A stretch of 64,000 bases of DNA from Candidatus Nomurabacteria bacterium. GTDB taxonomy: Bacteria > Patescibacteriota > Minisyncoccia > Phycocordibacterales > UBA918. Within the stretch, counting starts at the first letter, position 1. Each line of letters begins with the position of its first letter. Positions 30,895 to 45,957 of this stretch are shown here, one piece after another. Below the pieces are notes generated by a model. That model was given only the letters and a program-made list of their open reading frames with translations. It made no database searches and was not told the origin of the DNA. Position numbers and translations under genes: made by a program. Where the stretch lies: assembly GCA_020632135.1 (NCBI GenBank), contig JACKGC010000002.1, positions 3,325 through 67,324 of the forward strand, in the 5' to 3' direction.

Positions 30895-30900
30895 ATACCC

Positions 30901-30926: not shown

Positions 30927-30934
30927 TATTCTTT

Positions 30935-31597: not shown

Positions 31598-31617
31598 GAG
31601 GGGATTATACTAAAGCT

Positions 31618-31842: not shown

Positions 31843-31861
31843 CAAGTCTGCGAAGGAAAGT

Positions 31862-31907: not shown

Positions 31908-31910
31908 TAG

Positions 31911-32774: not shown

Positions 32775-32833
32775 GGCGGCATTGTACCCAAGTTAGGCTA
32801 TTTTTGCGACCGGGCAGGACATATAATTTGTAC

Positions 32834-33082
32834 ATGTCTCGCAAAGTCAACAAAAAGAAACGCTATGAGGTAATGTTCGAATTTCTCCTGTTTGGTATTG
32901 TAATTGGCGTGACCGAGGATCTGCTGGCAGTTCATCTGACGACAGGAGAGACTGTTACCTGGTCGATGATCGGTATCGTGATCTTGCTGGCCATTCCGTT
33001 TGCCATTATTGGTGAACTGATCGCTGACCACGTGGACTTTGTGAAGGTCTATGAGCGAATTACAGGCCGCCGCAAGCGATGA
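32834..33082 (+). CDS. Small membrane protein, hypothetical
   Basis: Two predicted TM helices (FEFLLFGIVIGV..., MIGIVILLAIPFAIIG). Start at ATG 32834. Confidence 0.45.
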   Translation: MSRKVNKKKRYEVMFEFLLFGIVIGVTEDLLAVHLTTGETVTWSMIGIVILLAIPFAIIGELIADHVDFVKVYERITGRRKR

Positions 33083-33165
33083 ACAGTTCTTAGTTGAAAT
33101 GTGGCTAAAAATCTGTAGAATAGCGGGTACTTAGCTTTTTGCTGAGTACTAGAGCTATATATTAT

Positions 33166-33237
33166 TCCGCGGTAGCTCAGCGGTAGAGCAGTCGGCTGTT
33201 AACCGATTGGTCGCAGGTTCGAATCCTGCCCGCGGAG
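33166..33237 (+). tRNA. tRNA-Asn (anticodon GTT)
   Basis: Hand-folded cloverleaf: acceptor TCCGCGG/CCGCGGA, D-arm GCTC..GAGC, anticodon stem GTCGG/CCGAT with loop CTGTTAA, T-arm GCAGG-TTCGAAT-CCTGC, discriminator G. Confidence 0.9.
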
Positions 33238-34812
33238 CAATACAGAACTCTGAGAGTACAAATCGCTATAAAACTGTTGCCTGTCAACGGTTTTTTGCGG
33301 TTCGAACCTATCGTGAATTTGCTTTACTTCAACAGAAGCCTTTTCAATGGCTTGAAGCATATCTGGCATGATAATAAAGAGTTTTTTGTCTACAAGCTTG
33401 AGGTTCGAACCTAGCATGAACAACATCTCTTTTCTGGTTCGTAATGATCCGTTTTTAAACCTCTTGTAGGCATCCTCGGCAAAAGTGAGATATTTTTCTG
33501 CATTGTTAAACCACTCTGTCGTACGTTCATTAGTGTTTCTAACTAGAGACTCTTGTCTAGACTTCTCCTGAAGTAGTTTTGCCTTTCTAGTTTTGAACTC
33601 TTCTGCACTAATTTCTTGGCTTGCCCTAAGATCAATGAGGTTGTCTATCTTTTGCAGGAGGTCTCCTAACTTTTGCTGTTGATTAAGGATAATCTTTTTT
33701 CTTGCTTTGACCTCTCGATTGTTATCCTCTTTAAGCCGGGTCATTGCCCAATTAAAAAACTCTTCAGGTATATCAATGCTTAACATTGATTTAGCTATCT
33801 GTTTTTCAAGCTTCTTCTCCTCAATTACCTTCTGTGAACAGTTGGGGTCTTTCCGCTTCGTACAGTGATAATAAACATAATGCCTCTCTATGCCGTTTTT
33901 CTGACGCTTTACTTTGTTTTCTGCTGTAATCATGGCACCACATTCGCCACAGATGATGGGACCTTTGTATGGGAAGTTGTAAGTTTTAGGACGAGTATTG
34001 TGTTTACCACCTAAAATATCCTGTACACTCTCGAACTCCTCTCTAGTGACCATTGGGTCGTGTTTGCCTTGGTACCAATTACCACTGCCTTTTGGGTATT
34101 CAAATACGCCATAATAGAAAGGATCAGATAGTATCCTGTAAATGTTACTCTTTGAGACAGCCTTTTCTTTGCGGTTTAACAAACCCCATTCTTCAGTGGC
34201 AATTTTGAGCACTTGAGGGGGTGTATAAGCACCTGTGAGCATTAAGTCCCATATCTTTCTGACTAAGTCGTATCTTTCAGGGTCTTTGACTATCTCTTTG
34301 TCTCCTTTGTTTTTGTAAGGATTGTGCATGTATCCAATAGTAGCCCATGCCGGGTACCACCCTCTTTCTGCTTTTGCTTTCAACCCTCGCTTTGTGTCGG
34401 TGCGTAAGTCTCGGATAAATTGGTTTGCTACACCAAACTCAACCTGCATCATCAGTACGTTATCGTCTGACTTGTAGTCTCTACCGTAGGTTTGTATGTG
34501 TTCGATGACATTCTCCTGTAACATCCAGCTGATATTTCCACCATCTATGGGATTGCGGGCAAGTCGGTTAAGTTTCCAGCAGAGTATACCAGTAGCTTCA
34601 CCCGAAGAAATGCGCATTAGCATGTCATTAAAAACAGGTCGTCCGGGAGCTTTGGCTGATCGTGACTCCTCAAACACTTCTACAACGTTTAACTTTTTAT
34701 CCTTGGCTAGCTCACGTAATTCACTAACCTGAGCATCAATAGACGCCATTTGCCGGTCTTCGTTTTCTGAAGACTTTCGAGCATAGATGAAGTATTTATC
34801 TGCGGCGTTCAT
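33199..34812 (-). CDS. Large serine recombinase (resolvase/invertase N-domain, recombinase domain, zinc ribbon, coiled coil)
   Basis: YARKSSENEDRQMASIDAQ (catalytic Ser region), CGECGAMITAE...YYHC zinc ribbon and a long helical C-terminus. The last 16 codons (SSVLLRGQDSNLRPIG*) are encoded on the complement of the tRNA-Asn. Confidence 0.9.
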   Translation of the reverse strand: MNAADKYFIYARKSSENEDRQMASIDAQVSELRELAKDKKLNVVEVFEESRSAKAPGRPVFNDMLMRISSGEATGILCWKLNRLARNPIDGGNISWMLQENVIEHIQTYGRDYKSDDNVLMMQVEFGVANQFIRDLRTDTKRGLKAKAERGWYPAWATIGYMHNPYKNKGDKEIVKDPERYDLVRKIWDLMLTGAYTPPQVLKIATEEWGLLNRKEKAVSKSNIYRILSDPFYYGVFEYPKGSGNWYQGKHDPMVTREEFESVQDILGGKHNTRPKTYNFPYKGPIICGECGAMITAENKVKRQKNGIERHYVYYHCTKRKDPNCSQKVIEEKKLEKQIAKSMLSIDIPEEFFNWAMTRLKEDNNREVKARKKIILNQQQKLGDLLQKIDNLIDLRASQEISAEEFKTRKAKLLQEKSRQESLVRNTNERTTEWFNNAEKYLTFAEDAYKRFKNGSLRTRKEMLFMLGSNLKLVDKKLFIIMPDMLQAIEKASVEVKQIHDRFEPQKTVDRQQFYSDLYSQSSVLLRGQDSNLRPIG

Positions 34813-35660
34813 AAAACTATTATATCCTCTTTAAAGGGAATGATTGTTGTTGCCCTCTTTCCTAATCTTTTTTGGACTAAGCTGTTGAAAAATGCCGGAG
34901 GGTTATTTTTATGTCTTCCGTCTAATTTCTCAAACTCATCAAAAGCGTCTTCTAGTACTCCTGTTCCGTGTTTCCGGTAAACATTCAGATAAAAACCAAT
35001 CTGCGTGTCACCTACCTGCATCGCTATCTTGAGACACTTTTCTTCTTCATAAGTCTCCGGCACAAAGTGATTTGTATGAAGCTTTACTTTTTGGGGTGAA
35101 GAGGGGAGCGATCGGTTATCTTTTTCTTTTTCAGTATTAGTATCGTTATTAGGACCTCTGATTATTTCTCCGACTTGTTTGAACTTTGAACCTTTGTTTA
35201 CAATGATATTTTTGGGATGAAACCTCTGACTATGGGCATGAAACTCTACTTTGACCTCTGGCTCGATCTCTTCCTTGTTAGGTGTTAAACCTCTGCCTAT
35301 TTCATCTGTGAAGAAGTGGTTCAAGGTTTTAATCTTCCCACCAGACAATAGCCAATCTCCCATATGGACCTCAAACGAACCTCTGCGTCCGGTTCGGCTT
35401 TGATACCATATGTACCTCTTACTCTTTAGTGATAGGAGTAGTTTATTGATGTAGCTCTTGTCGACGTGTGTGTTGAAGGTGTCGTCTGCTAAGCCGTCTA
35501 GAGTCACAACAGCTACGCCATATGGGTTGCCCGATGACCTAAGGACCAACAAGAGGTTCCTTTCGGGTTTTGTGATCTTGCCATTTCTATAATCACTCAT
35601 TATGTAGCGAGGGACCGTTACGTAGTCTAGTCTCTGTTTCTCCATACTCGTCATTATCAT
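34809..35660 (-). CDS. Hypothetical protein, possible winged-helix DNA-binding (replication or regulatory) protein
   Basis: 283 aa. 4-nt overlap with the recombinase start (coupled). N-terminal region KPERNLLLVLRSSGNPYGVAVVTLDGLADD. Confidence 0.55.
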   Translation of the reverse strand: MIMTSMEKQRLDYVTVPRYIMSDYRNGKITKPERNLLLVLRSSGNPYGVAVVTLDGLADDTFNTHVDKSYINKLLLSLKSKRYIWYQSRTGRRGSFEVHMGDWLLSGGKIKTLNHFFTDEIGRGLTPNKEEIEPEVKVEFHAHSQRFHPKNIIVNKGSKFKQVGEIIRGPNNDTNTEKEKDNRSLPSSPQKVKLHTNHFVPETYEEEKCLKIAMQVGDTQIGFYLNVYRKHGTGVLEDAFDEFEKLDGRHKNNPPAFFNSLVQKRLGKRATTIIPFKEDIIVL

Positions 35661-35796
35661 TTTCTAGTAAAACAATCTCCAATAATCGACATAACCTAAG
35701 ACCCTTTTTAAGAGCTTCATCACGACCTAACACAACCCCGTATCTTTTACGGTACATCTCTATGAACTCGTCGATGTGTTGGCCTGTAAGCTTCAT
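35593..35796 (-). CDS. Hypothetical small protein
   Basis: 67-aa ORF. Overlaps the downstream ORF start by ~68 nt in another frame. Confidence 0.35.
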   Translation of the reverse strand: MKLTGQHIDEFIEMYRKRYGVVLGRDEALKKGLRLCRLLEIVLLENDNDEYGETETRLRNGPSLHNE

Positions 35797-35835
35797 GTGT
35801 GGGTGGCGTGTGAGCGAGGTTTGGTGATTTAAAAA

Positions 35836-35893
35836 ACCGTATCTCGCTTAACAGGTCCTGAACGCCTTCGGTTCCTGCTAAGCGAGATACGGT
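35836..35893 (-). terminator. Rho-independent terminator (20-bp stem, 1 mismatch)
   Basis: ACCGTATCTCGCTTAACAGG / CCTGCTAAGCGAGATACGGT. T-run on the minus strand (complement of A 35831-35836). Confidence 0.7.
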
Positions 35894-35982
35894 CTCTTTA
35901 GATAAGGTGGCGTTCGTGGGACCAAAAAGTCACACTGTCGCCAGCTTACAAAAACGCCCTGTTTAAAAATGTTCCAAACAGT

Positions 35983-36711
35983 TTATAAGGTTCGGTATAT
36001 GTCCCCTTTATTCCATTTAAAGACATCGTCGGGGAGAAATTTTTTTATATCGCCCACTCTTCTGTTTATGTGATAAATGACTTGTCTCACAGCCTCCTTA
36101 TCTTTTTTGCTGAGCTCGTCTTCGTCAATGCCCGTCAGTTCAGTAGCAATATCTTCCCATCTTACAATTTCACCAACATCCGCTTCTAACATCATAGAGA
36201 GGGCGAGATACTCTCGTTTTGATCTTTCTATTGTAAAGACTGTTATCGACCCGGAGCTCAGGACGCCAGTTTCTTTATCAAACTCCAATGGTTCGGTCAG
36301 TGGTGGAGGAAGTAAATTTGCTAACTCAATTAGTTCGTCTCTTTGTCTAGTTAGTTCTTCTAATATTTCCGCACATCGCCGCTCGCCAACTTCTGTAGGG
36401 AAGCCTAACGCACAAGCTGCGAAAGAGAAGTCTGTAGATTTAGGGTCTAGAAACTTGTTCTTTGAATATGGCCCAAAATACTCTTTGTAATAACTGACAA
36501 ACTGATATACATGTACTTTCCATACAAGGTATTTATCATGCAAGTCACAGTAAAACCTTTCTGAGGGCTTTCTGTGGCGATATCGTATTTGATCAATGAT
36601 TGCGTTACTTTGCGCAATGAGCTCATTTACTTGATCATGTGGCTTTTCGTCTGAGTCTTGTTGATCTGAAACAGATGTTGTGTCTTTGGATGGTTCACTA
36701 TTATTACTCAT
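35983..36711 (-). CDS. Hypothetical protein with a C-terminal winged-helix-like region
   Basis: 242 aa. The C-terminal FTIERSKREYLALSMMLEADVGEIVRWEDIA...VRQVIYHINRRV resembles an OmpR-type wHTH. Confidence 0.5.
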   Translation of the reverse strand: MSNNSEPSKDTTSVSDQQDSDEKPHDQVNELIAQSNAIIDQIRYRHRKPSERFYCDLHDKYLVWKVHVYQFVSYYKEYFGPYSKNKFLDPKSTDFSFAACALGFPTEVGERRCAEILEELTRQRDELIELANLLPPPLTEPLEFDKETGVLSSGSITVFTIERSKREYLALSMMLEADVGEIVRWEDIATELTGIDEDELSKKDKEAVRQVIYHINRRVGDIKKFLPDDVFKWNKGDIYRTL

Positions 36712-37042
36712 ATTGGCGTTCAGGATGAGATTGTTACAGATTACACCTAATTATCTTGTTTTGCATGGTTTTGAGGAGTCTTCGGGTAAGGAGAAAGTTT
36801 GTGTGATAGTGTTGCTTCATTATGGGGAAAGTTAGTGCTAGACTACTTAGACAACTAAATATTTCAGTGGCCTAACCCGCAGTCGTGAGATAGCGGCATG
36901 GTTTAAAACCGATCAAAGATAGAGAACCCATCATATGGGAGCACTTTGATCGGTCCTGTCGGGAAACTGGCAGTGGGTAGCTGAGCTACCGCCCATGTGG
37001 TGGGCTTTGTGTATCTCAGCTTCATAAAAACCGATCAAAATT

Positions 37043-37978
37043 ATGGATACTAAAAAAAGTCCTCGTGATGAGGCGATAAAACATGAAGCTGAACATTATG
37101 ATGAGGTTCCGCTTTGGAAGTCATTCCGTGGTTACGCTGTACTAGGGATTGGTCTGTTGGGTGGGATAATGAGTGTACATCAGATATACCTGCAAGAGTA
37201 TGTATATGTTGTAATTTTTATCTCAGTACTCGCTATGCTTTTGTATTTTGTAGCTAAAGGACACTTGTGGTCTGTGTTTGTGCTGATGCTGCTCATTGTT
37301 TTCCACTCGATTAGTAACTGGATATACTTCGGAGTTATTGAACAAAAGTCAGGTGCGTGGATGGCGCTATTTTTTGGTTTTGTGATCCTGTCTTACTTTA
37401 TGATGCCGGTATTACGAGTCGAGCAGAAGAGAAGGTTTTTACAGAAGCAAGCAAAGGAAGGTCGGGTGATTGACACTTCTGTACTGAATAATAATCATGA
37501 AGATAAGGAGTCTGTGAAGACAGGAAGTGTTGACTCTGGTCATTTAAACTTGAGCAACGTTGTTATTGCTGTTCTCCTAGGGGCTCTCTTGATAGTTTTT
37601 GTCCTTATTTGGCAGAACGATGGAGGTGAAAGGGTGGGGTCTGGGCAAAGTGGTGGCACGACTCTAGTTACCGCACAAGAGTTGGTCGATATAGAGCTTA
37701 GTCATTACAGACTTCCTTACAAAATTGACAATGGTTTTTATGTTTTTGATGTACATGCGGTAAGTCGTTCAGAAATAGCGTATTCGATCCAAGCCACGAA
37801 TTATGCTGTGAGTGATATTGACTGGACCGAGTTCGGACCCGTTCTAAAAGGGGTGATGACGTCAGATTATTGCAAAACAGATGCTAAAGACAGCGACATT
37901 ATCTTTACTTACAAGTACTTCGATAAGGTAAAGGAGCATATTGGTAGTTACTCCATCACCCCGAGGGATTGTTTTTAA
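37043..37978 (+). CDS. Hypothetical membrane protein (4-5 TM plus a C-terminal soluble domain)
   Basis: 311-aa ORF, first gene of a tightly packed four-gene plus-strand block. Confidence 0.6.
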   Translation: MDTKKSPRDEAIKHEAEHYDEVPLWKSFRGYAVLGIGLLGGIMSVHQIYLQEYVYVVIFISVLAMLLYFVAKGHLWSVFVLMLLIVFHSISNWIYFGVIEQKSGAWMALFFGFVILSYFMMPVLRVEQKRRFLQKQAKEGRVIDTSVLNNNHEDKESVKTGSVDSGHLNLSNVVIAVLLGALLIVFVLIWQNDGGERVGSGQSGGTTLVTAQELVDIELSHYRLPYKIDNGFYVFDVHAVSRSEIAYSIQATNYAVSDIDWTEFGPVLKGVMTSDYCKTDAKDSDIIFTYKYFDKVKEHIGSYSITPRDCF

Positions 37979-37987
37979 TGGTTATTT

Positions 37988-38551
37988 ATGAGCAAAGAAC
38001 ATACTTTTGCATCTTTAGGTAACCAAAAAACACCCTTGTTTTACAAGGAAGTTGTTTTCCCAGAAGGGGAAAGGCATTTCGGTATAGATGTTTCTAAAAA
38101 ATACTTTTTAGACCCATGGAGTGATAGTAAACACTCTCCTGCACAATATTATTATCAACGTGTATTTGACCTAGTGTATGAAGATGAGCCTTGGTGTTAT
38201 GAAGGAACTGTCTACAAAATACGCATAGCTACTGACTCTGGTGTTCCAGAGGTCAGCGAGTGGGGGACTGTAGAAAGCTATATCAAAACCCATCATGGAC
38301 TATGGAAGGAAGAGGCTGAGAGGCGAAAGCAGATTGTTTGGGCAATGGGAGTACCTTTAGTTGTTTCCGTAATTGGATTAAATGAGACATGGTACATACC
38401 TATTATGTTATTAGCAGGGGCTATTGGTTTTTTTGCGGTGGGGGAATGGCGGCAAGGTCGTAGTAAAAGGAAGATCAAAAAACTTTTCAGGCTAACTGAA
38501 AAAACAAGAAATGGAGGAGATAAGGCAAGTTTTGCTGATAAAACTATATAA
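37988..38551 (+). CDS. Hypothetical protein with C-terminal TM helices
   Basis: 187-aa ORF, 9-nt spacing to the previous gene. Confidence 0.55.
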   Translation: MSKEHTFASLGNQKTPLFYKEVVFPEGERHFGIDVSKKYFLDPWSDSKHSPAQYYYQRVFDLVYEDEPWCYEGTVYKIRIATDSGVPEVSEWGTVESYIKTHHGLWKEEAERRKQIVWAMGVPLVVSVIGLNETWYIPIMLLAGAIGFFAVGEWRQGRSKRKIKKLFRLTEKTRNGGDKASFADKTI

Positions 38552-38563
38552 CCAGATGGATAT

Positions 38564-39052
38564 ATGAATGATATGTTTTGTCTTAGTCAGAATGAAAGAA
38601 AGTGTTCGGAAGGTGCTGAAGCTAGGCCGGTATTGCTATCGGACTGGTTTAACAAATTGGATGCATTTCAGGCAGAGGGTTATGAGTGGGCACAGAACGT
38701 GTTGGGCATCTGTGGACCGCTTACAGGCCACAGGAGCGACTTGGTGCCGTGTGCACTTACGTGGATGGTAGATGATTACCTTAGTCATGTTCTGGGCTAT
38801 GGAGGGCAAGATTGGGAGAGTCTGCTGGATGAGTATTATGTAAACCAGGATGAGATATGGGACCGGGTGTGGAAGATTAGAGGTGAGATTGCAAAAAGGC
38901 TTCTGAGCAAGGTCGATGGTGAGGAAGTTTGTCGTTCATTAGAGAAACTTACAGAACATGAAGTTGAAGACGAGCCGGGTGTATTTCGTAACCAACTAAG
39001 CTTCACTCAACAGTTGGAGTTACGAAGCTTTGTGTCGAATGGGTTGATGTAA
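38564..39052 (+). CDS. Hypothetical protein
   Basis: 162-aa ORF in the same block. Confidence 0.5.
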   Translation: MNDMFCLSQNERKCSEGAEARPVLLSDWFNKLDAFQAEGYEWAQNVLGICGPLTGHRSDLVPCALTWMVDDYLSHVLGYGGQDWESLLDEYYVNQDEIWDRVWKIRGEIAKRLLSKVDGEEVCRSLEKLTEHEVEDEPGVFRNQLSFTQQLELRSFVSNGLM

Positions 39053-39063
39053 TAGATTAGGGT

Positions 39064-40134
39064 ATGAGTCAGATGCTTTGTTGTAATGAGTGTGGCAGGG
39101 AAGTAAGGGATGTTTTTCCGTTTCCTGGCTTTATTACTGAGGATGGTGAGGTCGAAGTGTATGACGACTGGCGAACGGCGGGTTTCTTTGACGACGAAGA
39201 CAATGTAAGTGCTGTGTCCAGAAGTGTTAGGTGGTGCATGAACTGCAAAAAAGAGGTTTATTCCTATGTTAGTCATGTTAATTGGGACTTTTGGTGGCAG
39301 GTGGTCCAAAGCTTAAGGAAGCTAGAGTATTTGACTGAAAGGCAGTATGCAAAGCTTGTAAAAAAAGAGCTTAAAGCAAATGGATATGAAGATGGTGTGC
39401 CGCTGGTTGAGGGTGCTGACTGTAAACACGAAAACATTTCTGAACAAGACATATTTAAATACCTACAGGAAAAGAAGCTCATAGGTCCAAAAGAAAAACA
39501 TCTGTTTTTCTTTGAAAGACATAAGGTCCTCATACCAACTGATCTGAAGCAAAAAGATCTTGTGCCGTACGCAAAAGTATCTCTAAATGGTTCTTGTGAA
39601 GAGTGTGGTAAACATAATCTCGCAGAAGTGGGTGGTTCGTGTCCAATCTGCGAAAAAGGTATTTTGGAGCATGTTGGGTCTTGTGAGCCTACTGAGTCAA
39701 GAGGGAAAAAAGAGTTTGTGCTCGCTGGAGAGAGTTTAGATAAAGAGCTGTATAGCGACTTATTTTCTCATTACATTCAAGGTCAGTTGTCGCTTGAGAG
39801 AGACGTGAGAAAGACGGCAAGAGACCTCTTTGATGGTGACATACGAAAAGCGGTAGCCGAGCATGAGGACTTCTTTGCAGACGCTTTTAGGCGTTTTAGA
39901 GAAGGTTTTACCATTAAAGGAGAAGTTTATAGTAAGGATACATACCCCTGCCTTTTCATTGCTTACTGTGACTTCAAGATTGAAACGGTGGCACTGGTGG
40001 TTGATATTGCAGAGAAACAGTTCGGAGGAGATATTAAGCTAGCTGTGGAGGCAGAAGATAGAAGACTGCGTGATCAAGGCTTGTGTTCTAGTCGGATTAG
40101 TAGAGTAACCAGCAAAAGGTGTGGTATTTGTTGA
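39064..40134 (+). CDS. Hypothetical protein with multiple CxxC zinc-ribbon motifs
   Basis: CCNECGREV...CMNCKKEV and CEECGKHNLAEVGGSCPICEKG. Confidence 0.55.
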   Translation: MSQMLCCNECGREVRDVFPFPGFITEDGEVEVYDDWRTAGFFDDEDNVSAVSRSVRWCMNCKKEVYSYVSHVNWDFWWQVVQSLRKLEYLTERQYAKLVKKELKANGYEDGVPLVEGADCKHENISEQDIFKYLQEKKLIGPKEKHLFFFERHKVLIPTDLKQKDLVPYAKVSLNGSCEECGKHNLAEVGGSCPICEKGILEHVGSCEPTESRGKKEFVLAGESLDKELYSDLFSHYIQGQLSLERDVRKTARDLFDGDIRKAVAEHEDFFADAFRRFREGFTIKGEVYSKDTYPCLFIAYCDFKIETVALVVDIAEKQFGGDIKLAVEAEDRRLRDQGLCSSRISRVTSKRCGIC

Positions 40135-40680
40135 GGTTTTGTCGAGTTTGTCCGCTAGATCGTAAATCTCCTTGATCAAGGCTCTGTTTTTAGTCTTATT
40201 ATCTTGTTTTTCGGCCCCGTATCCGTGGTTTGCTTTTAGTAAGAAGACCGCAAAGGTTGTATTACAACGTCCACTGAGGCTCATATTTATCAAGTACTCG
40301 TGTTGCATACTTTTAATCAGCTCTATGCCGTGTTCAAATTGAGGGTGACGCTTTGTCCAATTTCTGAATGTGTTCTTGTGAATGACCACTCCGTATTTTT
40401 TCCAGAGGAAGTTTAGATAACCGGCGATGCTTGGCATCAAAGGTTGTTTAGAAGGAGTTTGTCTTTTAATAGGCTGTCTTTCTGCTGTATTAAGTTCGCA
40501 TTGTATTAAGTACTCCCAAATATCATTGTCAGCGTAGCGTTTTTTGTATAGAGAACTCCGACCACCTCTTTTGCCTGGCGTAAGGGTTCTGTTTTTACAC
40601 TCATACGAACAAAAGTGCTTTTGCCGAGGTTTGAGTACTTTGTCGCATCGTGAGTGTTCACACGTGCGGTTTTTGATCAT
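40039..40680 (-). CDS. Terminase small subunit-like HTH protein with an N-terminal Cys cluster
   Basis: PSIAGYLNFL...NTFRNWTKRHPQFEHGIELIKSMQHEYLINMSL...TFAVFLLKANHGYG matches the recalled terS pattern (PS..GLA.YLG...T...W....F...I......E..L.......IF.LKN..GW.D). Confidence 0.45.
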   Translation of the reverse strand: MIKNRTCEHSRCDKVLKPRQKHFCSYECKNRTLTPGKRGGRSSLYKKRYADNDIWEYLIQCELNTAERQPIKRQTPSKQPLMPSIAGYLNFLWKKYGVVIHKNTFRNWTKRHPQFEHGIELIKSMQHEYLINMSLSGRCNTTFAVFLLKANHGYGAEKQDNKTKNRALIKEIYDLADKLDKTSTNTTPFAGYSTNPTRTQALITQSSIFCLHS

Positions 40681-40928
40681 GTTTACACTAAACTTATCAC
40701 AGAAAGCCCCTTACGTGCACAAAAACTCAAAAGCACTCTAGAAATGCAGTGATTTTCATGCGGTATGCAGATTTTTGGTCGGTAACATGTTCTTAACTCG
40801 TAAGTATCTTAAACAGCACAGGTTCGAACGTCCTCTATCCAGCGGAGCCAATAAAATCTTAAGTCGCACCCACTGGTGCGGCTTTTGATTTTACGGCTCC
40901 GCGGGAGTGACAGTCTGGGAGACTGTCA

Positions 40929-41032
40929 CATCAGGATTCGAAGACCTTGCCAGCTATTTTGGAGTCTGGAAGACGAACAAAATAGCGACAAGGTGTACTG
41001 AAGCTGTAAGCTTCGAATCCTGCCCGCGGAGC
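40929..41032. repeat. 104-bp repeat, copy 1, ending in att core copy 2
   Basis: Identical to 45461-45564 except for one position (GTCTGGAAG versus GTCTGAAAG). Confidence 0.9.
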
Positions 41033-41139
41033 TTTCATAAGAATACCCTTGTTTATAAGGGTATTTTTGTGCATGGTCGATCACAGAGAAACCGATTATA
41101 GCTTGTTGTATTATCTATTAAAAACACCACCCAGGTATA

Positions 41140-41733
41140 CTAGGTGGCGTTTAGCTGCATAATAATCTCGTCGTAGAAGCAGCCCTTTCTTCTATGGACT
41201 TTTGGGTACCTGTACACTTCATTGAAACCGCAATGTCTGTAGCATGCTATAGCGGCGGTGTTGTGCTCGAGAACCCGCAATACAATCCCTCTCAACTCAA
41301 GATGGGTAAAACCAAATGTACAGAGACTTGAAACAATCTTTCTTCCATACTTATTACCACGAGAATGATTGTCACCCAGGAAAATTTCAAGCTCACAATA
41401 CCCTTGCACTGCATGAACTTTGTTTAAAGCGCAGAAGCCGATTGGTACGCCTTGTTTTTTTACAACAAAGGTCCAATCCGTATCCACTTTTTCCCGTAGA
41501 TCATGTAAACGTCTAGCAGTTTTTTCAATCGTCTCGTGTGAACCACTAAGAAACTCTATAATCTCAGGACTGTTTACCCAGCGATTATATAGAGGTACGT
41601 ACTTGTTGATCTGACTGATCTGCAAGGAGTTAAGTCTGCATAGGTCGATTTCTCCCACATGCAGTACAGTGCCTACCTTTGCCATTTTCATTGTAACCTC
41701 CTCGGAACTTAGTCTTCGTATTATCTGTGACAT
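41140..41733 (-). CDS. GNAT family N-acetyltransferase (RimJ/RimL-like)
   Basis: GFCALNKV...LEIFLGDNHSRGNKYGRKIVSSLCTFGF...RVLEHNTAAIACYRHCGFNEV (acetyl-CoA-binding motif A region). Confidence 0.85.
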   Translation of the reverse strand: MSQIIRRLSSEEVTMKMAKVGTVLHVGEIDLCRLNSLQISQINKYVPLYNRWVNSPEIIEFLSGSHETIEKTARRLHDLREKVDTDWTFVVKKQGVPIGFCALNKVHAVQGYCELEIFLGDNHSRGNKYGRKIVSSLCTFGFTHLELRGIVLRVLEHNTAAIACYRHCGFNEVYRYPKVHRRKGCFYDEIIMQLNAT

Positions 41734-41861
41734 TTATACTACAAAAATTTATAATGACAATACGGGACAAATTCAATCGTTAGAACTATTGAAATAAAAT
41801 TTTTTGTGGTATCGTCGTGTTATCAGTCAATCCTGGCTGTGTTCTTTAAAAGGAGACAGAT

Positions 41862-41993
41862 ATGTCAATTCTCCGCCGTATCTTCGGAAGGTCGAAGAAA
41901 CACGTCGAAAAGTTCAGTACCCGGGCCGGTGGTCCGAGTATGAACTTGGTGGCCACATCCAGCCAATGCGCAGGCATGTGCAAGTGTAACTAA
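41862..41993 (+). CDS. Candidate RiPP precursor peptide (43 aa, Cys-rich C-terminus)
   Basis: Not in the ORF track (<60 aa). AAAGGAG RBS at 41849-41855. Hand translation: MSILRRIFGRSKKHVEKFSTRAGGPSMNLVATSSQCAGMCKCN*. Lies 78 nt upstream of the radical SAM gene. Confidence 0.5.
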   Translation: MSILRRIFGRSKKHVEKFSTRAGGPSMNLVATSSQCAGMCKCN

Positions 41994-42017
41994 GGGCATC
42001 GATTGGTGCCTAAACAT

Positions 42018-42047
42018 AAATTGCCTGGGTAGTCACTCAGGCAATTT
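42018..42047 (+). promoter_or_regulatory. Hairpin between the precursor ORF and the maturase gene (possible partial terminator)
   Basis: AAATTGCCTG (42018-42027) / CAGGCAATTT (42038-42047), followed by CTCT. Confidence 0.4.
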
Positions 42048-42071
42048 CTCTACGTAATTGAGGAGGGGTAA

Positions 42072-43451
42072 ATGCAAGTTAATCAACTTACTAGTGTTAG
42101 CGCACCAATATCGGTTAATCTAGAAGTAACAGATAAGTGCAACTTGAGCTGTAGTTTTTGTTTCAATGCTGCACCTAGCTATGAAGCCATGATGCAGTCT
42201 CAGGAGAAACAGGATCGTGCTGAAAAAGCGCAAAACGAACTATTAATTTCAGTTCGAAAAAAGCGCATTCTGAAAACACTCGACAGACTTCACGAGACAG
42301 GGGTTTTGGAGATACGTCTTTTTGGAGGCGAGTTTACTATCTTTAAGAGCTGGAGAGAAATACTCGAATATGCATCAACAAAAGGATTCTTAATTTCTTT
42401 TGTTTCCAATGGATATCTTATCGATGGAGATGCGGCTGACGCGTTAGCCAGAAATGGGGTCGCTGAATGCACGATATCTATTCACGGTCCAAGAGATGTT
42501 CATGATGCAGTCGTCAAGCGTATTGGCAGCTTTGATAGAGCGATGGCTGCGATTAAGTACTTGAGGGAATCAGGTGTGGTGCCAACTGTGGCATATACAC
42601 CAAACCGTGAAAATATCGACACGCTGGAGGCTTTTATTCGAGAGATGTGTGAAGAATATGATGTTATGTCATTTTCGATTAGCAGACTATTCTCTGATGA
42701 TCGCTACAGCAATCTGACGCTCGATGATTATTATCGAATTCTTGAAGTAATCGATCGTTGTCATCGTGATCTGGGTGTGGAGATAATGCTTGCGGATTCG
42801 TTTCCAAGGTGTCAGGTGCCAATCAAATATTGGCGCTATCTTGGATACTGTTCACAAGGTGTAACCTTTGCACAAGTCGACTTCAACGGTAATATCAAAA
42901 ACTGTTCAGCCACTTCAAAAATTCTTGGTAACGTGCTCGAGGAAGATGTTACAAAGTTGTGGCCTGAAAAGCTTTCTGGAATGTGGAGACTCGATCATCT
43001 GCCAAAATCCTGCAAAATTTGCCCGATTTTTTGTGGAGGTGGGTGTACTGTCTCTCGCGGAGTTGAGAATCAATTTGCTCCTGATGAGTTCATTCCATGG
43101 CCAAGTGACGAAAGCTGGCTGCAGGCAATAGCAAAGACTGTCTACAATCGGGTGAGGAAAATCGGTCATCGAATTTTCTATGCTCAACACTACGCTAAAC
43201 CAGAATCCGTAAAAGAACTGAGCAACACTCCTGTGGTGGTCGAGTATAACTCGCGACCTGAAGGAGAAGGTCATGTCGTCATGTTTAAAAATTTTGGCGT
43301 CAGACAGCTCACTGATCAAGCGTACGAGGTGCTCAGATACATCGATGGCAAAAGAAGTATCAGTGAAATAACTGCAATAGTTCAAAAAAAGTACAATGGT
43401 ACTTCTGAAGCTGAAGTTGTTGAAATACTTAAAAGCCTGCCATTAAGGTAA
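42072..43451 (+). CDS. Radical SAM enzyme with a SPASM auxiliary-cluster domain and a C-terminal PqqD-like (RRE-type) domain
   Basis: GAGGAGGGG RBS. CNLSCSFC (CX3CX2C, aa 23-30). GGEFTIF. SPASM-like CSQGVTFAQVDFNGNIKNC...CKICPIFCGGGC. C-terminal LTDQAYEVLRYIDGKRSISEITAIVQKKYNGTSEAEVVEILKSL. Confidence 0.88.
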   Translation: MQVNQLTSVSAPISVNLEVTDKCNLSCSFCFNAAPSYEAMMQSQEKQDRAEKAQNELLISVRKKRILKTLDRLHETGVLEIRLFGGEFTIFKSWREILEYASTKGFLISFVSNGYLIDGDAADALARNGVAECTISIHGPRDVHDAVVKRIGSFDRAMAAIKYLRESGVVPTVAYTPNRENIDTLEAFIREMCEEYDVMSFSISRLFSDDRYSNLTLDDYYRILEVIDRCHRDLGVEIMLADSFPRCQVPIKYWRYLGYCSQGVTFAQVDFNGNIKNCSATSKILGNVLEEDVTKLWPEKLSGMWRLDHLPKSCKICPIFCGGGCTVSRGVENQFAPDEFIPWPSDESWLQAIAKTVYNRVRKIGHRIFYAQHYAKPESVKELSNTPVVVEYNSRPEGEGHVVMFKNFGVRQLTDQAYEVLRYIDGKRSISEITAIVQKKYNGTSEAEVVEILKSLPLR

Positions 43452-43454
43452 GGT

Positions 43455-43483
43455 AAAGAGAGGGGTGTACCCTCTCTTTTTTT
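43455..43483 (+). terminator. Rho-independent terminator
   Basis: AGAGAGGG-gtgta-CCCTCTCT followed by TTTTTT. Confidence 0.75.
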
Positions 43484-43499
43484 ATACTATACTTTGTTT

Positions 43500-44024
43500 A
43501 TGAAACATAAGCCCGATATTACATTCATCAACGACGTCAAAGACGTCTTAAGAAGTAAAGAAATTGTTGAAGAATTTGTACCTTTTCTTGAACGTAACGG
43601 TTATGAATTTTATTACCCATTTACAGAAAGCACTGATGCAGAGGAAGTGGCCAGGCAAATTGAGCTCGACGTAGACAAATTCGAGCTTAATGTGGCTAGT
43701 GAAAAGCTGCAGACCTTATGGAATTCCTTAAATAACGACTCAGTAGAGGGAGATTCTCTTTATGCTAAAGATTATATCTGTGTTGTTACCATGTATGGAC
43801 CGCGTGGTTTTTTTTACACCCCAAACACTATTTACGTGAATGTCACTTTTGATTCAGAACGGGACTGGGTTCAGACGATGTTGCATGAAATGCTTCACCT
43901 GGCACATTTTGAAGAGACTAAAGAGCTGGCTCATGCTGAAAGGGAAGGTTTCATAGATAAAAAATTTATAGAGCTCTGGGGTGATACTTTTCCTGAGTAT
44001 TCCAAGCAAAAAATATCAAAGTAG
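43500..44024 (+). CDS. Hypothetical HExxH-motif protein (putative zinc metallopeptidase)
   Basis: WVQTMLHEMLHLAHFEE contains HEMLH. Start at ATG 43500. Confidence 0.55.
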   Translation: MKHKPDITFINDVKDVLRSKEIVEEFVPFLERNGYEFYYPFTESTDAEEVARQIELDVDKFELNVASEKLQTLWNSLNNDSVEGDSLYAKDYICVVTMYGPRGFFYTPNTIYVNVTFDSERDWVQTMLHEMLHLAHFEETKELAHAEREGFIDKKFIELWGDTFPEYSKQKISK

Positions 44025-44228
44025 TCACAATATCAAAGTTCCGCCCCTTAGGGTGTTATGAAGGGAGTGACAGGGAATTGGGAATAAAAAACTTTACATC
44101 TTCAAACACTTTATTCCAATCAACTGTTCGAAACGCATCCAACTGGCGGAGCAAAGAAAAGTATCCCTAGAAACAGGGATATTTTTTGTTCAGAGTTGAT
44201 ACCCTGAGAAGACAGTTCGAAAAAGGTA

Positions 44229-44277
44229 CCTGACACCATTTACCATTTACTCACCATTTACCCTGACACCATTTACC
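44229..44277. repeat. Iteron-like cluster: four CCATTTAC units, including a 16-nt direct repeat CCTGACACCATTTACC (two copies)
   Basis: CCTGACACCATTTACC at 44229-44244 and 44262-44277. CCATTTAC also at 44243-44250 and 44254-44261. Confidence 0.8.
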
Positions 44278-44410
44278 ATGAGCTAGTCTATGTGCCATCT
44301 GAAGACCTGGTTACGTGAGTTCGAACGTTATCCCATAGGTGAGCAAACGAGTCTAATTATATTTATCAACGAAAGTTGGTTCGGATCCTGTAAACAGGTA
44401 TACTTTGTGT

Positions 44411-44740
44411 ATGCATTTTTCAAGATTATTTAAAGTAAAAGAGGGAAAATTGGATGACATAAAAAGTTGGTTTAAAGTTTTGAGTGGTGACCGAAAAGAA
44501 GAAGCAATTGCGACTTTCGAATACGAAAATGTATCAAGAGAGGTTTTTGTTTTATTTAGTGGTCATAATGGAAATAGTTACGTGGTTGGGTTAAACGAAA
44601 CGACTGGTGAGCATAGAGGTGGTGATCCGGATGTCAAAATAAATCAAGAACATACTAAAATCCTAAAAGAATGTTTAGAGCCAGTTTCAGACAATGGTAG
44701 TGTTTTGCTAGATTTACAGATTCACAAGGATGAAGCCTAA
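44411..44740 (+). CDS. Hypothetical small protein (DUF6176-like by recalled pattern)
   Basis: FSRLFKVKEGKLDDIKSWFKVL...INQEHTKILKECLEP. Confidence 0.45.
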   Translation: MHFSRLFKVKEGKLDDIKSWFKVLSGDRKEEAIATFEYENVSREVFVLFSGHNGNSYVVGLNETTGEHRGGDPDVKINQEHTKILKECLEPVSDNGSVLLDLQIHKDEA

Positions 44741-44848
44741 CTGTGGTGTGTACGTTTTGTTTGGATTGAGTTTAATATTAACTTGTGATACTTTTCAGAA
44801 AGCTAGATGACGATCTAGCTTTTGTTCTGTATCAACTGGAGAACTCCT

Positions 44849-45382
44849 ATGAAAAGTTTGTGTCTTACTGCAATTCACGCAGGCATTATGCCCGTGCATC
44901 AAGAACGACTTGCCTATATCGATTCGTGCGACTTCAGTCGCTACTTCGACAAGGCAGTTGAACTCGATCTGATAAGTGGTAACGTCGATCGTGAAGCAAT
45001 AATCTTCGCTCTCAAGCAGTACTATGCCATCGCCATGCTCGACCCGGCAAACGGGCATGCGGTGTCTGATGTCGTTGATCCTCTCTGGCATGCACACATG
45101 CTGTTTAGTGAGGAGTATGCTCAGTTTTGCAGCATAGTGGTTGGCGAGTATATGCATCACACGCCTCTGCTTAAGAACGATGATGCGATGCGCATGAAGG
45201 TGCGAGCGCTGTACGACTACACCCTGCTTCGCTTGCGCGAGTGTTTCAGTCACGTCGACGAACGTATGTGGCCGGCGCTTCTAGACGAGCGCCTGATCTG
45301 TATGCATAAGGGTAATCAGTCGATCTACATTGACATGCAGGCAGCTCGTCTTTTTCCTGCGAATCTGGCTTTAGCCACCTAA
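44849..45382 (+). CDS. DUF1399/glycine-rich-domain-protein-like hypothetical
   Basis: VDPLWHAHMLFSEEYAQFCSIVVGEYMHHTP motif. GGAGA RBS before ATG 44849. Confidence 0.55.
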   Translation: MKSLCLTAIHAGIMPVHQERLAYIDSCDFSRYFDKAVELDLISGNVDREAIIFALKQYYAIAMLDPANGHAVSDVVDPLWHAHMLFSEEYAQFCSIVVGEYMHHTPLLKNDDAMRMKVRALYDYTLLRLRECFSHVDERMWPALLDERLICMHKGNQSIYIDMQAARLFPANLALAT

Positions 45383-45460
45383 TTAGGTAGTTTGTTGTAA
45401 CTCTGTCCCTGTACTATGTACTGGGACTTTTATTTTTTATAAAAAGTTCGAACACCATCC

Positions 45461-45564
45461 CATCAGGATTCGAAGACCTTGCCAGCTATTTTGGAGTCTG
45501 AAAGACGAACAAAATAGCGACAAGGTGTACTGAAGCTGTAAGCTTCGAATCCTGCCCGCGGAGC
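45461..45564. repeat. 104-bp repeat, copy 2, ending in att core copy 3
   Basis: See copy 1. Confidence 0.9.
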
Positions 45565-45614
45565 AGATCAAGTACGCTGAGAAATGGGGTGTGCTTTTTG
45601 GTATACTCAAACTA

Positions 45615-45878
45615 ATGAAACAATACAAACAGTGTCAGAGCTGTGGCTTCCCACTCAAGCAGGATAAAAAAGGTGGTGGCACCAATGCAGATGGTACTGT
45701 GAGCGAGAAGTACTGCTCTATGTGTTATGAGAATGGCCAATTCCTCAGTCCGCCAGAAGTTGATACGGCTGAAAAATTTCAGCAGTACTGTATGAAAGAG
45801 ATGAAAAAAGATGGCTGGAATGGAATTCTGGCCTGGTTCTTAACGCGGGGCATTCCGCGACTTGAGCGTTGGAAATGA
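45615..45878 (+). CDS. Zinc-ribbon domain protein
   Basis: CQSCGFPL...GTNADGTVSEKYCSMCYENGQF pattern. Confidence 0.6.
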   Translation: MKQYKQCQSCGFPLKQDKKGGGTNADGTVSEKYCSMCYENGQFLSPPEVDTAEKFQQYCMKEMKKDGWNGILAWFLTRGIPRLERWK

Positions 45879-45957
45879 GCAACAACCCCACCTATAAACT
45901 ATATGACGTTGTCTCGAAAGCGACACAAGATGCCTGAATGAATGCCTCACAGAAATT

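What the first reader, a model, noticed from the sequence alone, without database searches (positions are those of the whole stretch)
33218..45564. Tandem accretion at one tRNA: three copies of the 21-bp tRNA 3' core delimit an integrase-bearing element and an integrase-less module
- TTCGAATCCTGCCCGCGGAGC occurs at 33218-33238 (the functional tRNA), 41012-41032 and 45544-45564, all in the same orientation.
- The first interval carries the serine recombinase. The second interval has no recombinase but carries the RiPP-like cluster.
- This resembles the element-plus-cis-mobilizable-element (CIME) arrangement described for streptococcal ICEs, in which the neighbour's recombinase can mobilise either part or both together.
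- The island is visibly more AT-rich than its flanks.
Basis: partly seen in the sequence, partly recalled or inferred. Interest (0 to 1): 0.6.

Follow-up and report, generated by a model that had tools for sequence, protein, structure and literature searches.

The report
Mobile-element pile-up at one tRNA gene

Summary
The 21-mer occurs exactly three times in the same orientation (0 expected), copy 1 is the 3' end of tRNA-Asn(GTT), and the island has 0.42 GC against 0.52 in the flank.

- **E1 boundaries.** The recombinase element E1 spans 33239-40848 and does not end at copy 2. Metagenome contigs from one sample show both the empty site (tRNA joined directly to 40849...) and the occupied right junction. 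E1's right arm is a tRNA-like sequence with 5 extra bases, which is the attP/attB spacing rule described for large serine recombinases (LSRs).
- **Copies 2 and 3.** They are the last 21 nt of a 105-107-nt repeat (98% identical). This repeat belongs to a very stable hairpin structure (HS) that also lies downstream of related elements in three other lineages.
- **Module 2.** Module 2 (41033-45564) has no recombinase and is compositionally foreign. It carries a genuine RiPP (ribosomally made, modified peptide) cassette and is precisely absent in one contig from another sample.

E1's recombinase probably cannot move module 2 by the canonical rules, because both module-2 flanks are attB-type arms.

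The closest known analogue is the set of tandem serine-recombinase islands at ssrA in Dehalococcoides. I rate this a new variant of a known kind, of moderate interest.

The parts
33166..33238 (+). tRNA-Asn(GTT). Its last 23 nt (GGTTCGAATCCTGCCCGCGGAGC) form the attB left half-site (B arm). The probable crossover dinucleotide is GC at 33237-33238.
   Evidence: ARAGORN. Rfam tRNA, 73.6 bits. The core shared by attL, attR and attB is GCGGAGC, narrowed to CGGAGC by L020.
33199..34812 (-). Large serine recombinase of E1, 537 aa. The ORF crosses attL, and its last 13 codons plus the stop codon are the reverse complement of the tRNA.
   Evidence: Pfam Resolvase 1e-20, Recombinase, Zn_ribbon_recom. 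Homologues at 61-78% identity end in ...QDSNLRPID, the same read-through into a tRNA. More than 4500 relatives have E<=1e-30.
33239..40848 (.). E1: an intact 7610-bp integrative element of a Patescibacteria serine-recombinase family.
   Evidence: The empty-site contig L001 joins the tRNA directly to 40849.... The occupied attR contig L019 comes from the same sample and ends at the same 30-mer node. GC is 0.416.
34809..35660 (-). Conserved core gene of the element family: 283 aa, with an N-terminal winged-helix domain. The adjacent 67-aa ORF (35593-35796, - strand) is also conserved.
   Evidence: 48-51% identical in the L021, L030 and L031 elements. AlphaFold model with wHTH-like PDB matches only, none significant.
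36869..36990 (+). LOOT RNA (Rfam RF03000), at the 5' end of the rightward operon of E1.
   Evidence: 68 bits against a gathering score of 46.4. The same family sits in related elements L024, L056, L057, L004, L005 and L033.
40039..40680 (-). Terminase-small-subunit-like gene, E1-specific cargo. The four upstream ORFs (37043-40134, + strand) have no family match.
   Evidence: Pfam GP3_package 1.4e-10. PHROG 3064 terminase 9.8e-12. Not conserved in sister elements.
40817..40848 (+). attP-type right arm (P arm) of E1: CACAGGTTCGAACGTCCTCTATCCAGCGGAGC. It is a tRNA-like sequence in which GGTTCGAA sits 18 nt from the GC, against 13 nt in the tRNA.
   Evidence: The identical arm occurs in L015 and L030, and homologous arms in L024, L021 and L031. 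The +5-bp shift holds in 5 of 5 elements. The rule is described in PMC3783163.
40849..41032 (+). 184-nt 'mini' unit: a terminator hairpin (40861-40884) followed by the hairpin structure HS (40896-41032). HS ends in 21-mer copy 2 (41012-41032).
   Evidence: Terminator scan. HS minimum free energy is -73 to -76 kcal/mol. HS homologues lie downstream of attR in L030, L021 and L031, with compensatory changes in the stems.
40926..41032 (+). Left copy of the 107-nt direct repeat. Effective identity starts at 40928. There is one internal SNP: G at 40969 against A at 45501.
   Evidence: the repeat finder family D1, 98% identity. Alignment.
41033..45564 (.). Module 2: a 4532-bp recombinase-less, compositionally foreign segment that ends in the right copy of the 107-nt repeat (45458-45564) and 21-mer copy 3 (45544-45564).
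   Evidence: GC 0.417 and tetranucleotide correlation 0.18. Precisely absent in L015, which jumps from 41032 to 45565. Present at 100% identity in L002 and L016-L018.
41140..41733 (-). GNAT acetyltransferase (module 2 cargo).
   Evidence: Pfam Acetyltransf_3 7e-17.
41862..44024 (+). RiPP cassette. It comprises a 43-aa precursor (41862-41993, ...SSQCAGMCKCN), a radical-SAM/SPASM maturase with a C-terminal PqqD-like region (42072-43451), and a 176-aa protein with an HExxH motif (43494-44024).
   Evidence: Pfam Radical_SAM 2.8e-22, with SPASM and PqqD below their cut-offs. The precursor is conserved upstream of rSAM homologues in two other lineages. Homologous cassettes lie at unrelated chromosomal sites.
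44126..44152 (+). Probable fossil P arm, GTTCGAAACGCATCCAACTGGCGGAGC, followed by a hairpin. Weaker P-like sites lie at 44319-44344 and 45446-45472.
   Evidence: 19 of 27 matches to E1's P arm, with 0.1 such matches expected per window. Five of the six GTTCGAAC sites in the window lie inside the island.
44405..45382 (+). DUF6176 gene (44405-44740) and a 186-aa gene (44822-45382), both module 2 cargo.
   Evidence: Pfam DUF6176 4.5e-9. L002 annotation gives PF27765 for the 186-aa gene.
45565..45615 (+). Flank to the right of copy 3, possibly the native sequence downstream of the tRNA (B' arm). It precedes the Zn_ribbon_2 gene.
   Evidence: Similar by eye, 13 of 17 positions with one gap and not tested for significance, to the flank after attR in the syntenic relative L024. 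L024 shares UDG-Fpg-tRNA-Asn...S30AE synteny with the window.

Best explanation
The 3' end of tRNA-Asn in this Patescibacteria genome is a site-specific integration hot spot. It holds a tandem array of three units.

**Unit 1, E1 (33239-40848).** E1 is an intact element of a very large family of Patescibacteria serine-recombinase elements.
- Its recombinase binds the T-loop-to-3'-end of the tRNA as the attB left arm, and a tRNA-like arm with 5 extra bases as the attP arm.
- It exchanges strands at the terminal GC of the tRNA gene.
- E1 is mobile today: filled and empty sites coexist in one sample.

**Units 2 and 3, the 184-nt 'mini' and the 4.5-kb module 2.**
- Both end in the same hairpin-rich sequence (HS) followed by a perfect 21-nt copy of the tRNA 3' end.
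- I infer they are relics of a second kind of tRNA-integrating element. That element would cross over at the T-loop, bring its own copy of the tRNA 3' end plus a terminator, and push the older copy outward. This is classical accretion, with the newest unit nearest the tRNA.
- Both relics have lost their recombinase.
- Module 2 also contains fossil E-type arms and a stranded RiPP cassette.
- Its present-day gain or loss most likely happens by recombination between the 105-nt repeats. Homologous recombination would be enough.

**Shown:** the E1 boundaries, the attB/attP spacing, the empty site, the module-2-less allele, the foreign composition, and the conservation of HS.

**Inferred:** the T-loop crossover for HS-type units, the order of arrival, and the mechanism of module-2 loss.
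For: **E1 boundaries and mobility**
- L001 shows the tRNA followed by 40849...; L019 shows E1's right end followed by the same sequence. Both come from sample SRR14234115 and both end at the same 30-mer, as expected at a k=31 graph branch.
- The P arm equals the B arm plus 5 bp in 5 of 5 related elements, matching the published rule.
- The recombinase abuts and reads into a tRNA 3' end throughout the family: Asn, Gln, Asp and Ser.

**Module 2 and the repeat**
- The 107-nt repeat.
- L015 lacks module 2 precisely.
- E1 and module 2 are compositionally foreign, whereas 'mini' is not.

**HS**
- HS homologues lie just downstream of attR in L030, L021 and L031.
- Their 3' ends match the local tRNA, Asn or Gln, as expected for an attR made of an element end plus a displaced host tRNA 3' end.
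- Copies 1 and 2 are each followed by a terminator-like hairpin.

**Other**
- Fossil P arm inside module 2.
- Known precedent: tandem serine-recombinase islands bounded by 20-bp repeats of the ssrA 3' end, including islands without a recombinase.
Against: - No intact HS-type element with its own recombinase was found, so the second element class is inferred from its ends only.
- The 105-nt identity between the two HS copies stops abruptly on the left. That fits insertion or deletion of a circle by recombination within the repeat better than two independent insertions of related elements.
- The single internal SNP (L015 carries the copy-3 allele) argues against a site-specific crossover inside the 21-mer, unless it is strain variation.
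- L015 is one short contig (1239 bp) from a different strain. If that strain's two repeats were identical, an assembler using k below 105 could have collapsed them.
- Apparent remnants of a recombinase gene 3' end next to copy 2 were not significant (z=0.9).
- In the closest syntenic relative, L024, HS is absent. HS is therefore not a universal feature.
Confidence: 0.6

Rival explanations
1. One reading: the three 21-bp cores are the att sites of one recombinase, E1's. That enzyme can excise E1, module 2, or both together.
For: - The 21-mer is exactly the B half-site that the E-type recombinase recognises.
- Module 2 is missing precisely between the repeats in L015.
- An attP-like junction joining another element's P-type arm to E1's left end (L020) shows that non-canonical tandem joints do arise in this family.
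- The Dehalococcoides precedent proposes cis-mobilizable elements (CIMEs) for a serine-recombinase system.
Against: - E1's true attR is the P arm at 40817-40848, not a 21-mer copy.
- Copies 2 and 3 both have B-type spacing, so module 2 is flanked by two B-x sites rather than an attL/attR pair.
- Large serine recombinases are reported not to recombine such pairings (PMC3783163).
- No E1-plus-module-2 excision junction was seen.
- The SNP pattern in L015 places the exchange left of the 21-mer.
Confidence: 0.15
2. HS is a host-encoded structured RNA or DNA element that normally sits downstream of the tRNA, not an element end. Module 2 is foreign DNA that entered or left by homologous recombination through a partial HS copy it carried. 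Under this reading there is no 'accretion' beyond E1.
For: - HS lies outside the mobile unit E1 and is conserved in position, with compensatory stem changes, in L030 and L021.
- 'Mini' has host-like GC, 0.505.
- Only the 3' 105 nt of HS is duplicated, and homology ends abruptly.
- L015 carries the copy-3 SNP allele.
Against: - HS also occurs near a tRNA-Gln in L031, about 5 kb from the tRNA. Its 3' end there is adapted to that tRNA, which points to mobility.
- HS is absent in the syntenic relative L024.
- It has no Rfam match.
- Relative to L024, 'mini' looks like an insertion between the tRNA 3' end and the native flank, bounded by 21-nt direct repeats.
Confidence: 0.2
3. Assembly artefact: the repeats and the tandem layout come from mis-joined contigs of different strains.
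For: - The window is probably from a metagenome-assembled genome.
- Several strain variants of this locus coexist in the source samples.
Against: Independent contigs from several samples reproduce the E1 right junction, both ends of module 2 and the right flank at 100% identity: L019, L002, L003 and L016-L018. Only the E1 attL junction (33238/33239) was not independently re-observed.
Confidence: 0.03

Closest known systems
Dehalococcoides ssrA-specific genomic islands (McMurdie et al. 2011, PMC3146451)
   Same: - Tandem islands lie downstream of a tRNA-like gene.
- Islands are bounded by a roughly 20-bp direct repeat of the gene's 3' end that starts in the T-loop.
- A roughly 540-aa serine recombinase sits on the reverse strand next to attL.
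- A conserved motif lies just upstream of each repeat.
- Many islands lack a recombinase and were proposed to be cis-mobilizable elements.
- The islands have low GC.
   Different: - The target here is a tRNA, not tmRNA.
- The intact element here does not end at a perfect repeat. It ends at an attP-type arm with a +5-bp shift, and it crosses over at the last bases of the gene.
- No second small serine recombinase (DsiA-like) is present.
- The sequence upstream of the repeat is an 86-nt part of a 136-nt hairpin structure, not a 15-bp motif.
- Homology between this recombinase and DsiB was not tested.
ICESt1/ICESt3-type accretion and CIMEs in Streptococcus (Pavlovic et al. 2004, cited in PMC3146451 and PMC5704250; not read here)
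   Same: An element sits next to a recombinase-less neighbour that is flanked by repeats of the attachment core. The units are individually present or absent among strains.
   Different: - Those systems use tyrosine recombinases, whose identical core repeats are the crossover region.
- Here the resident enzyme is a large serine recombinase, which needs attP-type and attB-type arms and only a 2-bp overlap.
- No conjugation genes are present.
Phage large serine integrases (A118/LI, Bxb1, phiC31; Rutherford et al. 2013, PMC3783163)
   Same: - The domain set is the same: Resolvase, Recombinase, zinc ribbon.
- The distal recognition motif lies 5 bp closer to the centre in attB than in attP.
   Different: - The target is the 3' end of a tRNA gene.
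- The recombinase ORF itself spans attP/attL, so its last roughly 12 codons change on integration.
- The host elements are 6-8 kb and carry no recognisable virion genes.
Phage satellites of the PICI type (from general knowledge; not checked here)
   Same: A small island with an integrase at one end and a terminase-small-subunit-like gene.
   Different: - The TerS-like gene is not conserved in sister elements.
- No repressor/primase module or capsid-remodelling genes were recognised.
- No relatives were found in IMG/VR.

Membership tests
Large serine recombinase (integrase) system | N-terminal resolvase catalytic domain, recombinase domain and zinc-ribbon domain | tested here: met
   PF00239 1e-20, PF07508 1.5e-9, PF13408 1.1e-8.
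Large serine recombinase (integrase) system | attP and attB half-sites share a distal motif that is shifted 5 bp toward the centre in attB | tested here: met
   GGTTCGAA lies 13 nt from the GC in the tRNA arm and 18 nt from it in the element arm. This holds in E1, L030, L024, L021 and L031. The rule is described in PMC3783163.
Large serine recombinase (integrase) system | Strand exchange at a 2-bp central dinucleotide, with no long identity needed | tested here: inconclusive
   The core common to attL, attR and attB is only 7 nt (GCGGAGC), or 6 nt with L020. Assigning the GC by symmetry is an inference.
Large serine recombinase (integrase) system | A recombination directionality factor for excision | not tested
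   The conserved 67-aa ORF (35593-35796) is a candidate only.
Cis-mobilizable element (CIME) / accretion | Lacks its own recombination and transfer genes | tested here: met
   No recombinase domain in any module-2 ORF.
Cis-mobilizable element (CIME) / accretion | Flanked by functional attL/attR sites of the neighbouring element's recombinase | tested here: not met
   Both flanks are identical B-type arms. The P-type arm that E1 uses is not at the module-2 boundary.
Cis-mobilizable element (CIME) / accretion | Excises alone or together with the neighbour | tested here: inconclusive
   A module-2-less allele exists (L015), but the mechanism is unknown. No composite junction (tRNA|45565) was found among the contigs available.
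Dehalococcoides-type tandem ssrA/tRNA islands | Islands bounded by roughly 20-bp direct repeats of the gene's 3' end, starting in the T-loop | tested here: met
   True for 'mini' and module 2 (copies 1-2 and 2-3). Not true for E1's own right end.
Dehalococcoides-type tandem ssrA/tRNA islands | Integration module with a large (DsiB) and a small (DsiA) serine recombinase next to attL | tested here: not met
   Only one serine recombinase is present, and the neighbouring genes have no resolvase domain.
Phage satellite (PICI-like) | Integrase plus packaging-hijack genes conserved across the family, and dependence on a helper phage | tested here: inconclusive
   The TerS-like gene is present but is E1-specific. 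Helper dependence cannot be tested with these tools.
RiPP biosynthetic cluster (radical-SAM/SPASM type) | A short precursor peptide next to a radical-SAM/SPASM maturase that has a peptide-recognition (PqqD-like) domain | tested here: met
   The precursor ...SSQCAG[MK]C[RK]C is conserved upstream of homologues. Radical_SAM scores 2.8e-22, while SPASM and PqqD fall just below their cut-offs. NCBI names the protein 'PqqD family'.

The most novel reading that the evidence does not exclude
HS plus the 21-nt tRNA mimic could be a portable, structured recombination site. It would let recombinase-less gene cassettes, such as module 2 with its RiPP genes, be captured and released next to tRNA genes by the resident serine recombinase acting in trans. 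That would be an integron-like cassette system, run by a serine recombinase, in Patescibacteria.
Probability: 0.1. Interest if true: 0.8.

Novelty: new variant of a known kind. Interest (0 to 1): 0.45.

Why it matters
Mobile DNA in Patescibacteria (the candidate phyla radiation) is poorly charted. Four points make this locus useful.
- It gives a worked example of a very large family of small serine-recombinase elements (more than 4500 relatives) that target tRNA 3' ends. Both att arms are defined and there is natural evidence of excision or vacancy.
- It shows how accessory genes, here a RiPP cassette, become stranded beside such elements.
- The att sites could serve people who mine serine integrases as genome-engineering tools.
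- Two RNA-like features gain a genomic context. One is the orphan Rfam family LOOT. The other is the unnamed hairpin structure HS.

The general architecture, tandem islands at a tRNA-like gene that use a serine recombinase, is already known from Dehalococcoides.

Tried and rejected
- **Recombinase stub next to copy 2.** I thought the flank right of copy 2 (41033-41100) was a leftover of a recombinase gene's 3' end. A global alignment against real P' flanks gave z=0.9, so I dropped it. The same test gave no support for P'-like flanks after E1's attR or after copy 3.
- **L021 right end.** I first placed it after HS. A search for the conserved arm moved it to before HS.
- **Distant relatives.** Recombinase relatives in GTDB genomes (34-39% identity) do not abut tRNAs and told me little about this subfamily.
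- **IMG/VR.** There was no recombinase relative and no HS motif, so nothing supports a viral origin.
- **HS covariance model.** I did not build one. Only three or four distinct sequences exist and MAFFT mis-aligned L031, so the compensatory changes were read by eye.
- **283-aa core protein.** Structure prediction gave only a generic winged helix, with no PDB match at E<=0.001.
- **L002 as a circle.** The 4562-bp contig L002 equals 4532 + 30 nt and looks circular. A segment flanked by a 63-nt exact repeat gives the same result, so it is not evidence for a module-2 circle.
- **L031 module.** The 5-kb module before HS in L031 holds an IS200-like transposase but no integrase.

Full report
**1.

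The 21-mer TTCGAATCCTGCCCGCGGAGC occurs at 33218, 41012 and 45544, all on the + strand. No further site appears at up to 3 mismatches, and shuffles give none. Copy 1 is the 3' end of tRNA-Asn(GTT), 33166-33238, the only tRNA in the window. GC falls from about 0.52 to 0.41-0.43 between 33 and 45 kb. By segment:

| Segment | GC | Tetranucleotide correlation to left flank |
|---|---|---|
| E1 | 0.416 | 0.06 |
| Module 2 | 0.417 | 0.18 |
| Left flank | 0.517 | - |
| Control chunks of the flank | - | 0.77-0.88 |

**2. The repeat is longer than reported**

Copies 2 and 3 are the last 21 nt of a 107-nt direct repeat, 40926-41032 and 45458-45564, 98% identical. Copy 1 shares only the 21-25 nt.

**3. 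True boundaries of the recombinase element**

- A Logan contig from SRR14234115 (L001) matches the window from 21911 to 33242 at 99.99%. After the tRNA it continues with CAATAAAATCTTAAGTCGCACCC, which is window 40849-40871.
- A second contig from the same sample (L019) runs from E1's terminase-like gene to 40871.
- Both contigs stop at the same 30-mer (40842-40871). That is what a k=31 graph does where two paths merge. Filled and empty sites therefore coexist in that sample.
- E1 is 33239-40848 (7610 bp). The core shared by attL, attR and attB is GCGGAGC.
- E1's right arm is CACAGGTTCGAACGTCCTCTATCCAGCGGAGC (40817-40848). It looks like the tRNA 3' end with 5 extra bases: GGTTCGAA lies 18 nt from the terminal GC, against 13 nt in the tRNA.
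- The same relation holds in four related elements: L030, L024, L021 and L031.
- This is the published attP/attB rule for large serine integrases, in which the zinc-ribbon motif sits 5 bp closer to the centre in attB (PMC3783163).
- By symmetry the crossover is probably the terminal GC (33237-33238). That is an inference.

**4. The recombinase family**

- The 537-aa protein has Resolvase, Recombinase and zinc-ribbon domains.
- Its ORF crosses attL: the last 13 codons and the stop codon are the reverse complement of the tRNA.
- Homologues at 61-78% identity end in the same ...QDSNLRPID tail.
- More than 4500 relatives have E<=1e-30, and those with names come from Patescibacteria.
- In every close relative with enough sequence, the gene's 3' end overlaps a tRNA 3' end. 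The tRNA is Asn in L021-L024, L028, L029 and L056; Gln in L031; Asp in L032; Ser in L034 and L035.
- L024 shares the window's synteny, UDG-Fpg-tRNA-Asn-element...S30AE.
- Only the recombinase, a 283-aa winged-helix protein and a 67-aa ORF are conserved between elements. The rest, including E1's terminase-small-subunit-like gene, is variable cargo.
- NCBI labels for identical proteins are 'candidate division WWE3' and 'Candidatus Nomurabacteria'.

**5. What copies 2 and 3 belong to**

- Region 40896-41032 folds into a three-way hairpin structure (HS) of -73 to -76 kcal/mol.
- Stem P1 pairs GCTCCGCGGG with the CCCGCGGAGC of the 21-mer. P2 is a 10-bp hairpin. P3 pairs CAGGATTCGAAG with CTTCGAATCCTG. 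P4 is a long hairpin. A small hairpin with a GTA loop precedes CGAA.
- Homologous sequences lie outside the recombinase element, downstream of its attR: 34 nt after attR in L030, about 150 nt after it in L021, and about 5 kb after it in L031.
- The stems show compensatory changes:
 - P2: GTGACAGTC/GACTGTCAC against GTAACAGTT/AACTGTTAC.
 - P4: GCTAT/ATAGC against GATAT/ATATC.
 - GTA hairpin: AAGCT/AGCTT against GTCAT/ATGAC.
- In L030 the 5' strand of P1 (GCTCCGACGG) is complementary to that lineage's tRNA-Asn 3' end (CCGTCGGAGC, read from the close relatives L025-L029), just as GCTCCGCGGG is to CCCGCGGAGC in the window. The L030 contig ends before the 3' end of its own HS, so P1 pairing there is inferred.
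- In L031 the HS 3' end resembles the local tRNA-Gln, not tRNA-Asn.
- This pattern is what an attR looks like when it is made of an element's end plus the displaced 3' end of the host tRNA. I therefore read HS as the right terminus of a second class of tRNA-integrating element that crosses over at the T-loop.
- No intact member with a recombinase was found.
- Rfam has no match to HS.

**6. Module 2**

- An ENA contig (L015) runs from 40817 to 41032 and then straight on to 45565 and the Zn_ribbon_2 gene. Module 2 and one repeat copy are absent there.
- L015 also carries a different element upstream of the same P arm, so it comes from another strain.
- Contigs L002, L003 and L016-L018 reproduce module 2 and its right junction at 100%.
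- L015 has the copy-3 allele at the one internal SNP. That places any exchange left of 40969, which fits homologous recombination better than a crossover inside the 21-mer. Strain variation cannot be excluded.
- Module 2 encodes:
 - a GNAT acetyltransferase;
 - a RiPP cassette, made up of a 43-aa precursor ...SSQCAGMCKCN, a radical-SAM/SPASM maturase with a PqqD-like tail, and an HExxH protein;
 - a DUF6176 protein;
 - a 186-aa protein.
- The precursor is conserved upstream of rSAM homologues in two other lineages. Those cassettes sit at ordinary chromosomal sites, between gyrB and grpE or between a histidine kinase and TyrRS.
- Module 2 also holds a probable fossil P arm at 44126-44152, with 19 of 27 matches and 0.1 expected per window. 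Weaker ones lie at 44319 and 45446. Five of the six GTTCGAAC sites in the window lie inside the island.

**7. Can E1's recombinase move module 2?**

- Both module-2 flanks carry the 21-mer with attB-type spacing. No P-type arm sits at its right boundary.
- Large serine integrases are reported to recombine attP with attB, and attL with attR when a directionality factor is present, but not other pairings.
- The CIME reading is therefore not supported for E1's enzyme, though it is not excluded.
- One sign that non-canonical joints do arise: contig L020, from the same sample as L001, joins E1's left 3.7 kb (100% identical, up to 33233) to an unrelated GC-rich sequence. That sequence ends in a P-type arm, GTTCGGAT followed by 17 nt and then GC. 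This is an attP-like junction, meaning either two elements in tandem or a hybrid circle. It remains unexplained.

**8. Comparison with known systems**

- The nearest precedent is the set of Dehalococcoides ssrA islands. These are tandem low-GC islands bounded by 20-bp repeats of the ssrA 3' end that start in the T-loop. A roughly 540-aa serine recombinase sits next to attL on the reverse strand. Fifteen islands lack the integration module and were proposed to be CIMEs (PMC3146451).
- The present locus differs in five ways: the target is a tRNA; the intact element's own right end is an attP-type arm rather than a perfect repeat; there is no second small recombinase; the recombinase ORF overlaps the tRNA; and the structured HS terminus is present.

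**9. Verdict**

This is a new variant of a known kind, of moderate interest.

Noticed in passing
window 36869-36990 (+); L024 4981-5109; L056 5366-5485; L057 4580-4699; L004 9658-9781; L005 9157-9273; L033 14935-15060: The orphan Rfam family LOOT RNA (RF03000) is part of these serine-recombinase elements. It scores above the gathering threshold in the window and in 6 of the 24 related loci scanned. In E1, L024 and L056 it sits at the 5' end of the operon that diverges from the recombinase core module, like a leader or promoter-proximal sRNA.
   Followed up: partly
L025 2255-2517 and L026 1905-2167; also the L027 end: In close relatives, the tRNA-Asn targeted by the same recombinase family carries a group I intron of about 260 nt in the anticodon loop (CTGT|...|TAATCAA). 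Rfam RF00028 scores 79.7 bits. ARAGORN therefore misses these tRNAs.
   Followed up: partly
L020 3696-3868 (Logan SRR14234115_658855): E1's left 3.7 kb, 100% identical, is joined at the CGGAGC core to 173 nt of unrelated GC-rich sequence. That sequence ends in an attP-type arm. The junction means either a tandem array of another element with E1 or a hybrid circle, and it gives the recombinase a different C-terminal tail (541 aa, P0001).
   Followed up: partly
window 33237-33242 versus L001 positions 19-24: The empty-site allele encodes the tRNA's CCA end (GGAG-CCA-ATAAA). With E1 inserted, the gene reads GGAG-CAA, so integration removes the encoded CCA. The 3' end would then have to be added after transcription.
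   Followed up: no
window 33299-33308 and 33402-33411: Two GGTTCGAACC palindromes 103 nt apart lie inside the 3' end of the recombinase gene (codons RFEP and GSNL). Both are conserved in all homologous genes examined. They carry the same motif as the att arms, so they may be accessory binding sites or simply conserved codons.
   Followed up: no
window 45565-58500: In the syntenic relative L024, the tRNA-Asn element is followed almost at once by NUDIX-Grx-S30AE. In the window, S30AE is at 58541. The intervening 13 kb may therefore also be lineage-specific or acquired. It holds Zn_ribbon_2, DUF1801, a 2045-aa ORF with no Pfam match (GC 0.479), a CAP-domain protein and a deacetylase/GT2 fusion.
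   Followed up: partly
window 44229-44279: An exact 18-nt tandem pair (CCTGACACCATTTACCAT, repeated 33 nt on) lies in the non-coding stretch between the two fossil arm-like sites of module 2.
   Followed up: no
L056 175-3668: A sister element at tRNA-Asn (recombinase 77% identical) carries a type I restriction-modification system (HsdM, HsdS, NucS-like nuclease) as cargo. This shows that the family ferries defence genes.
   Followed up: no
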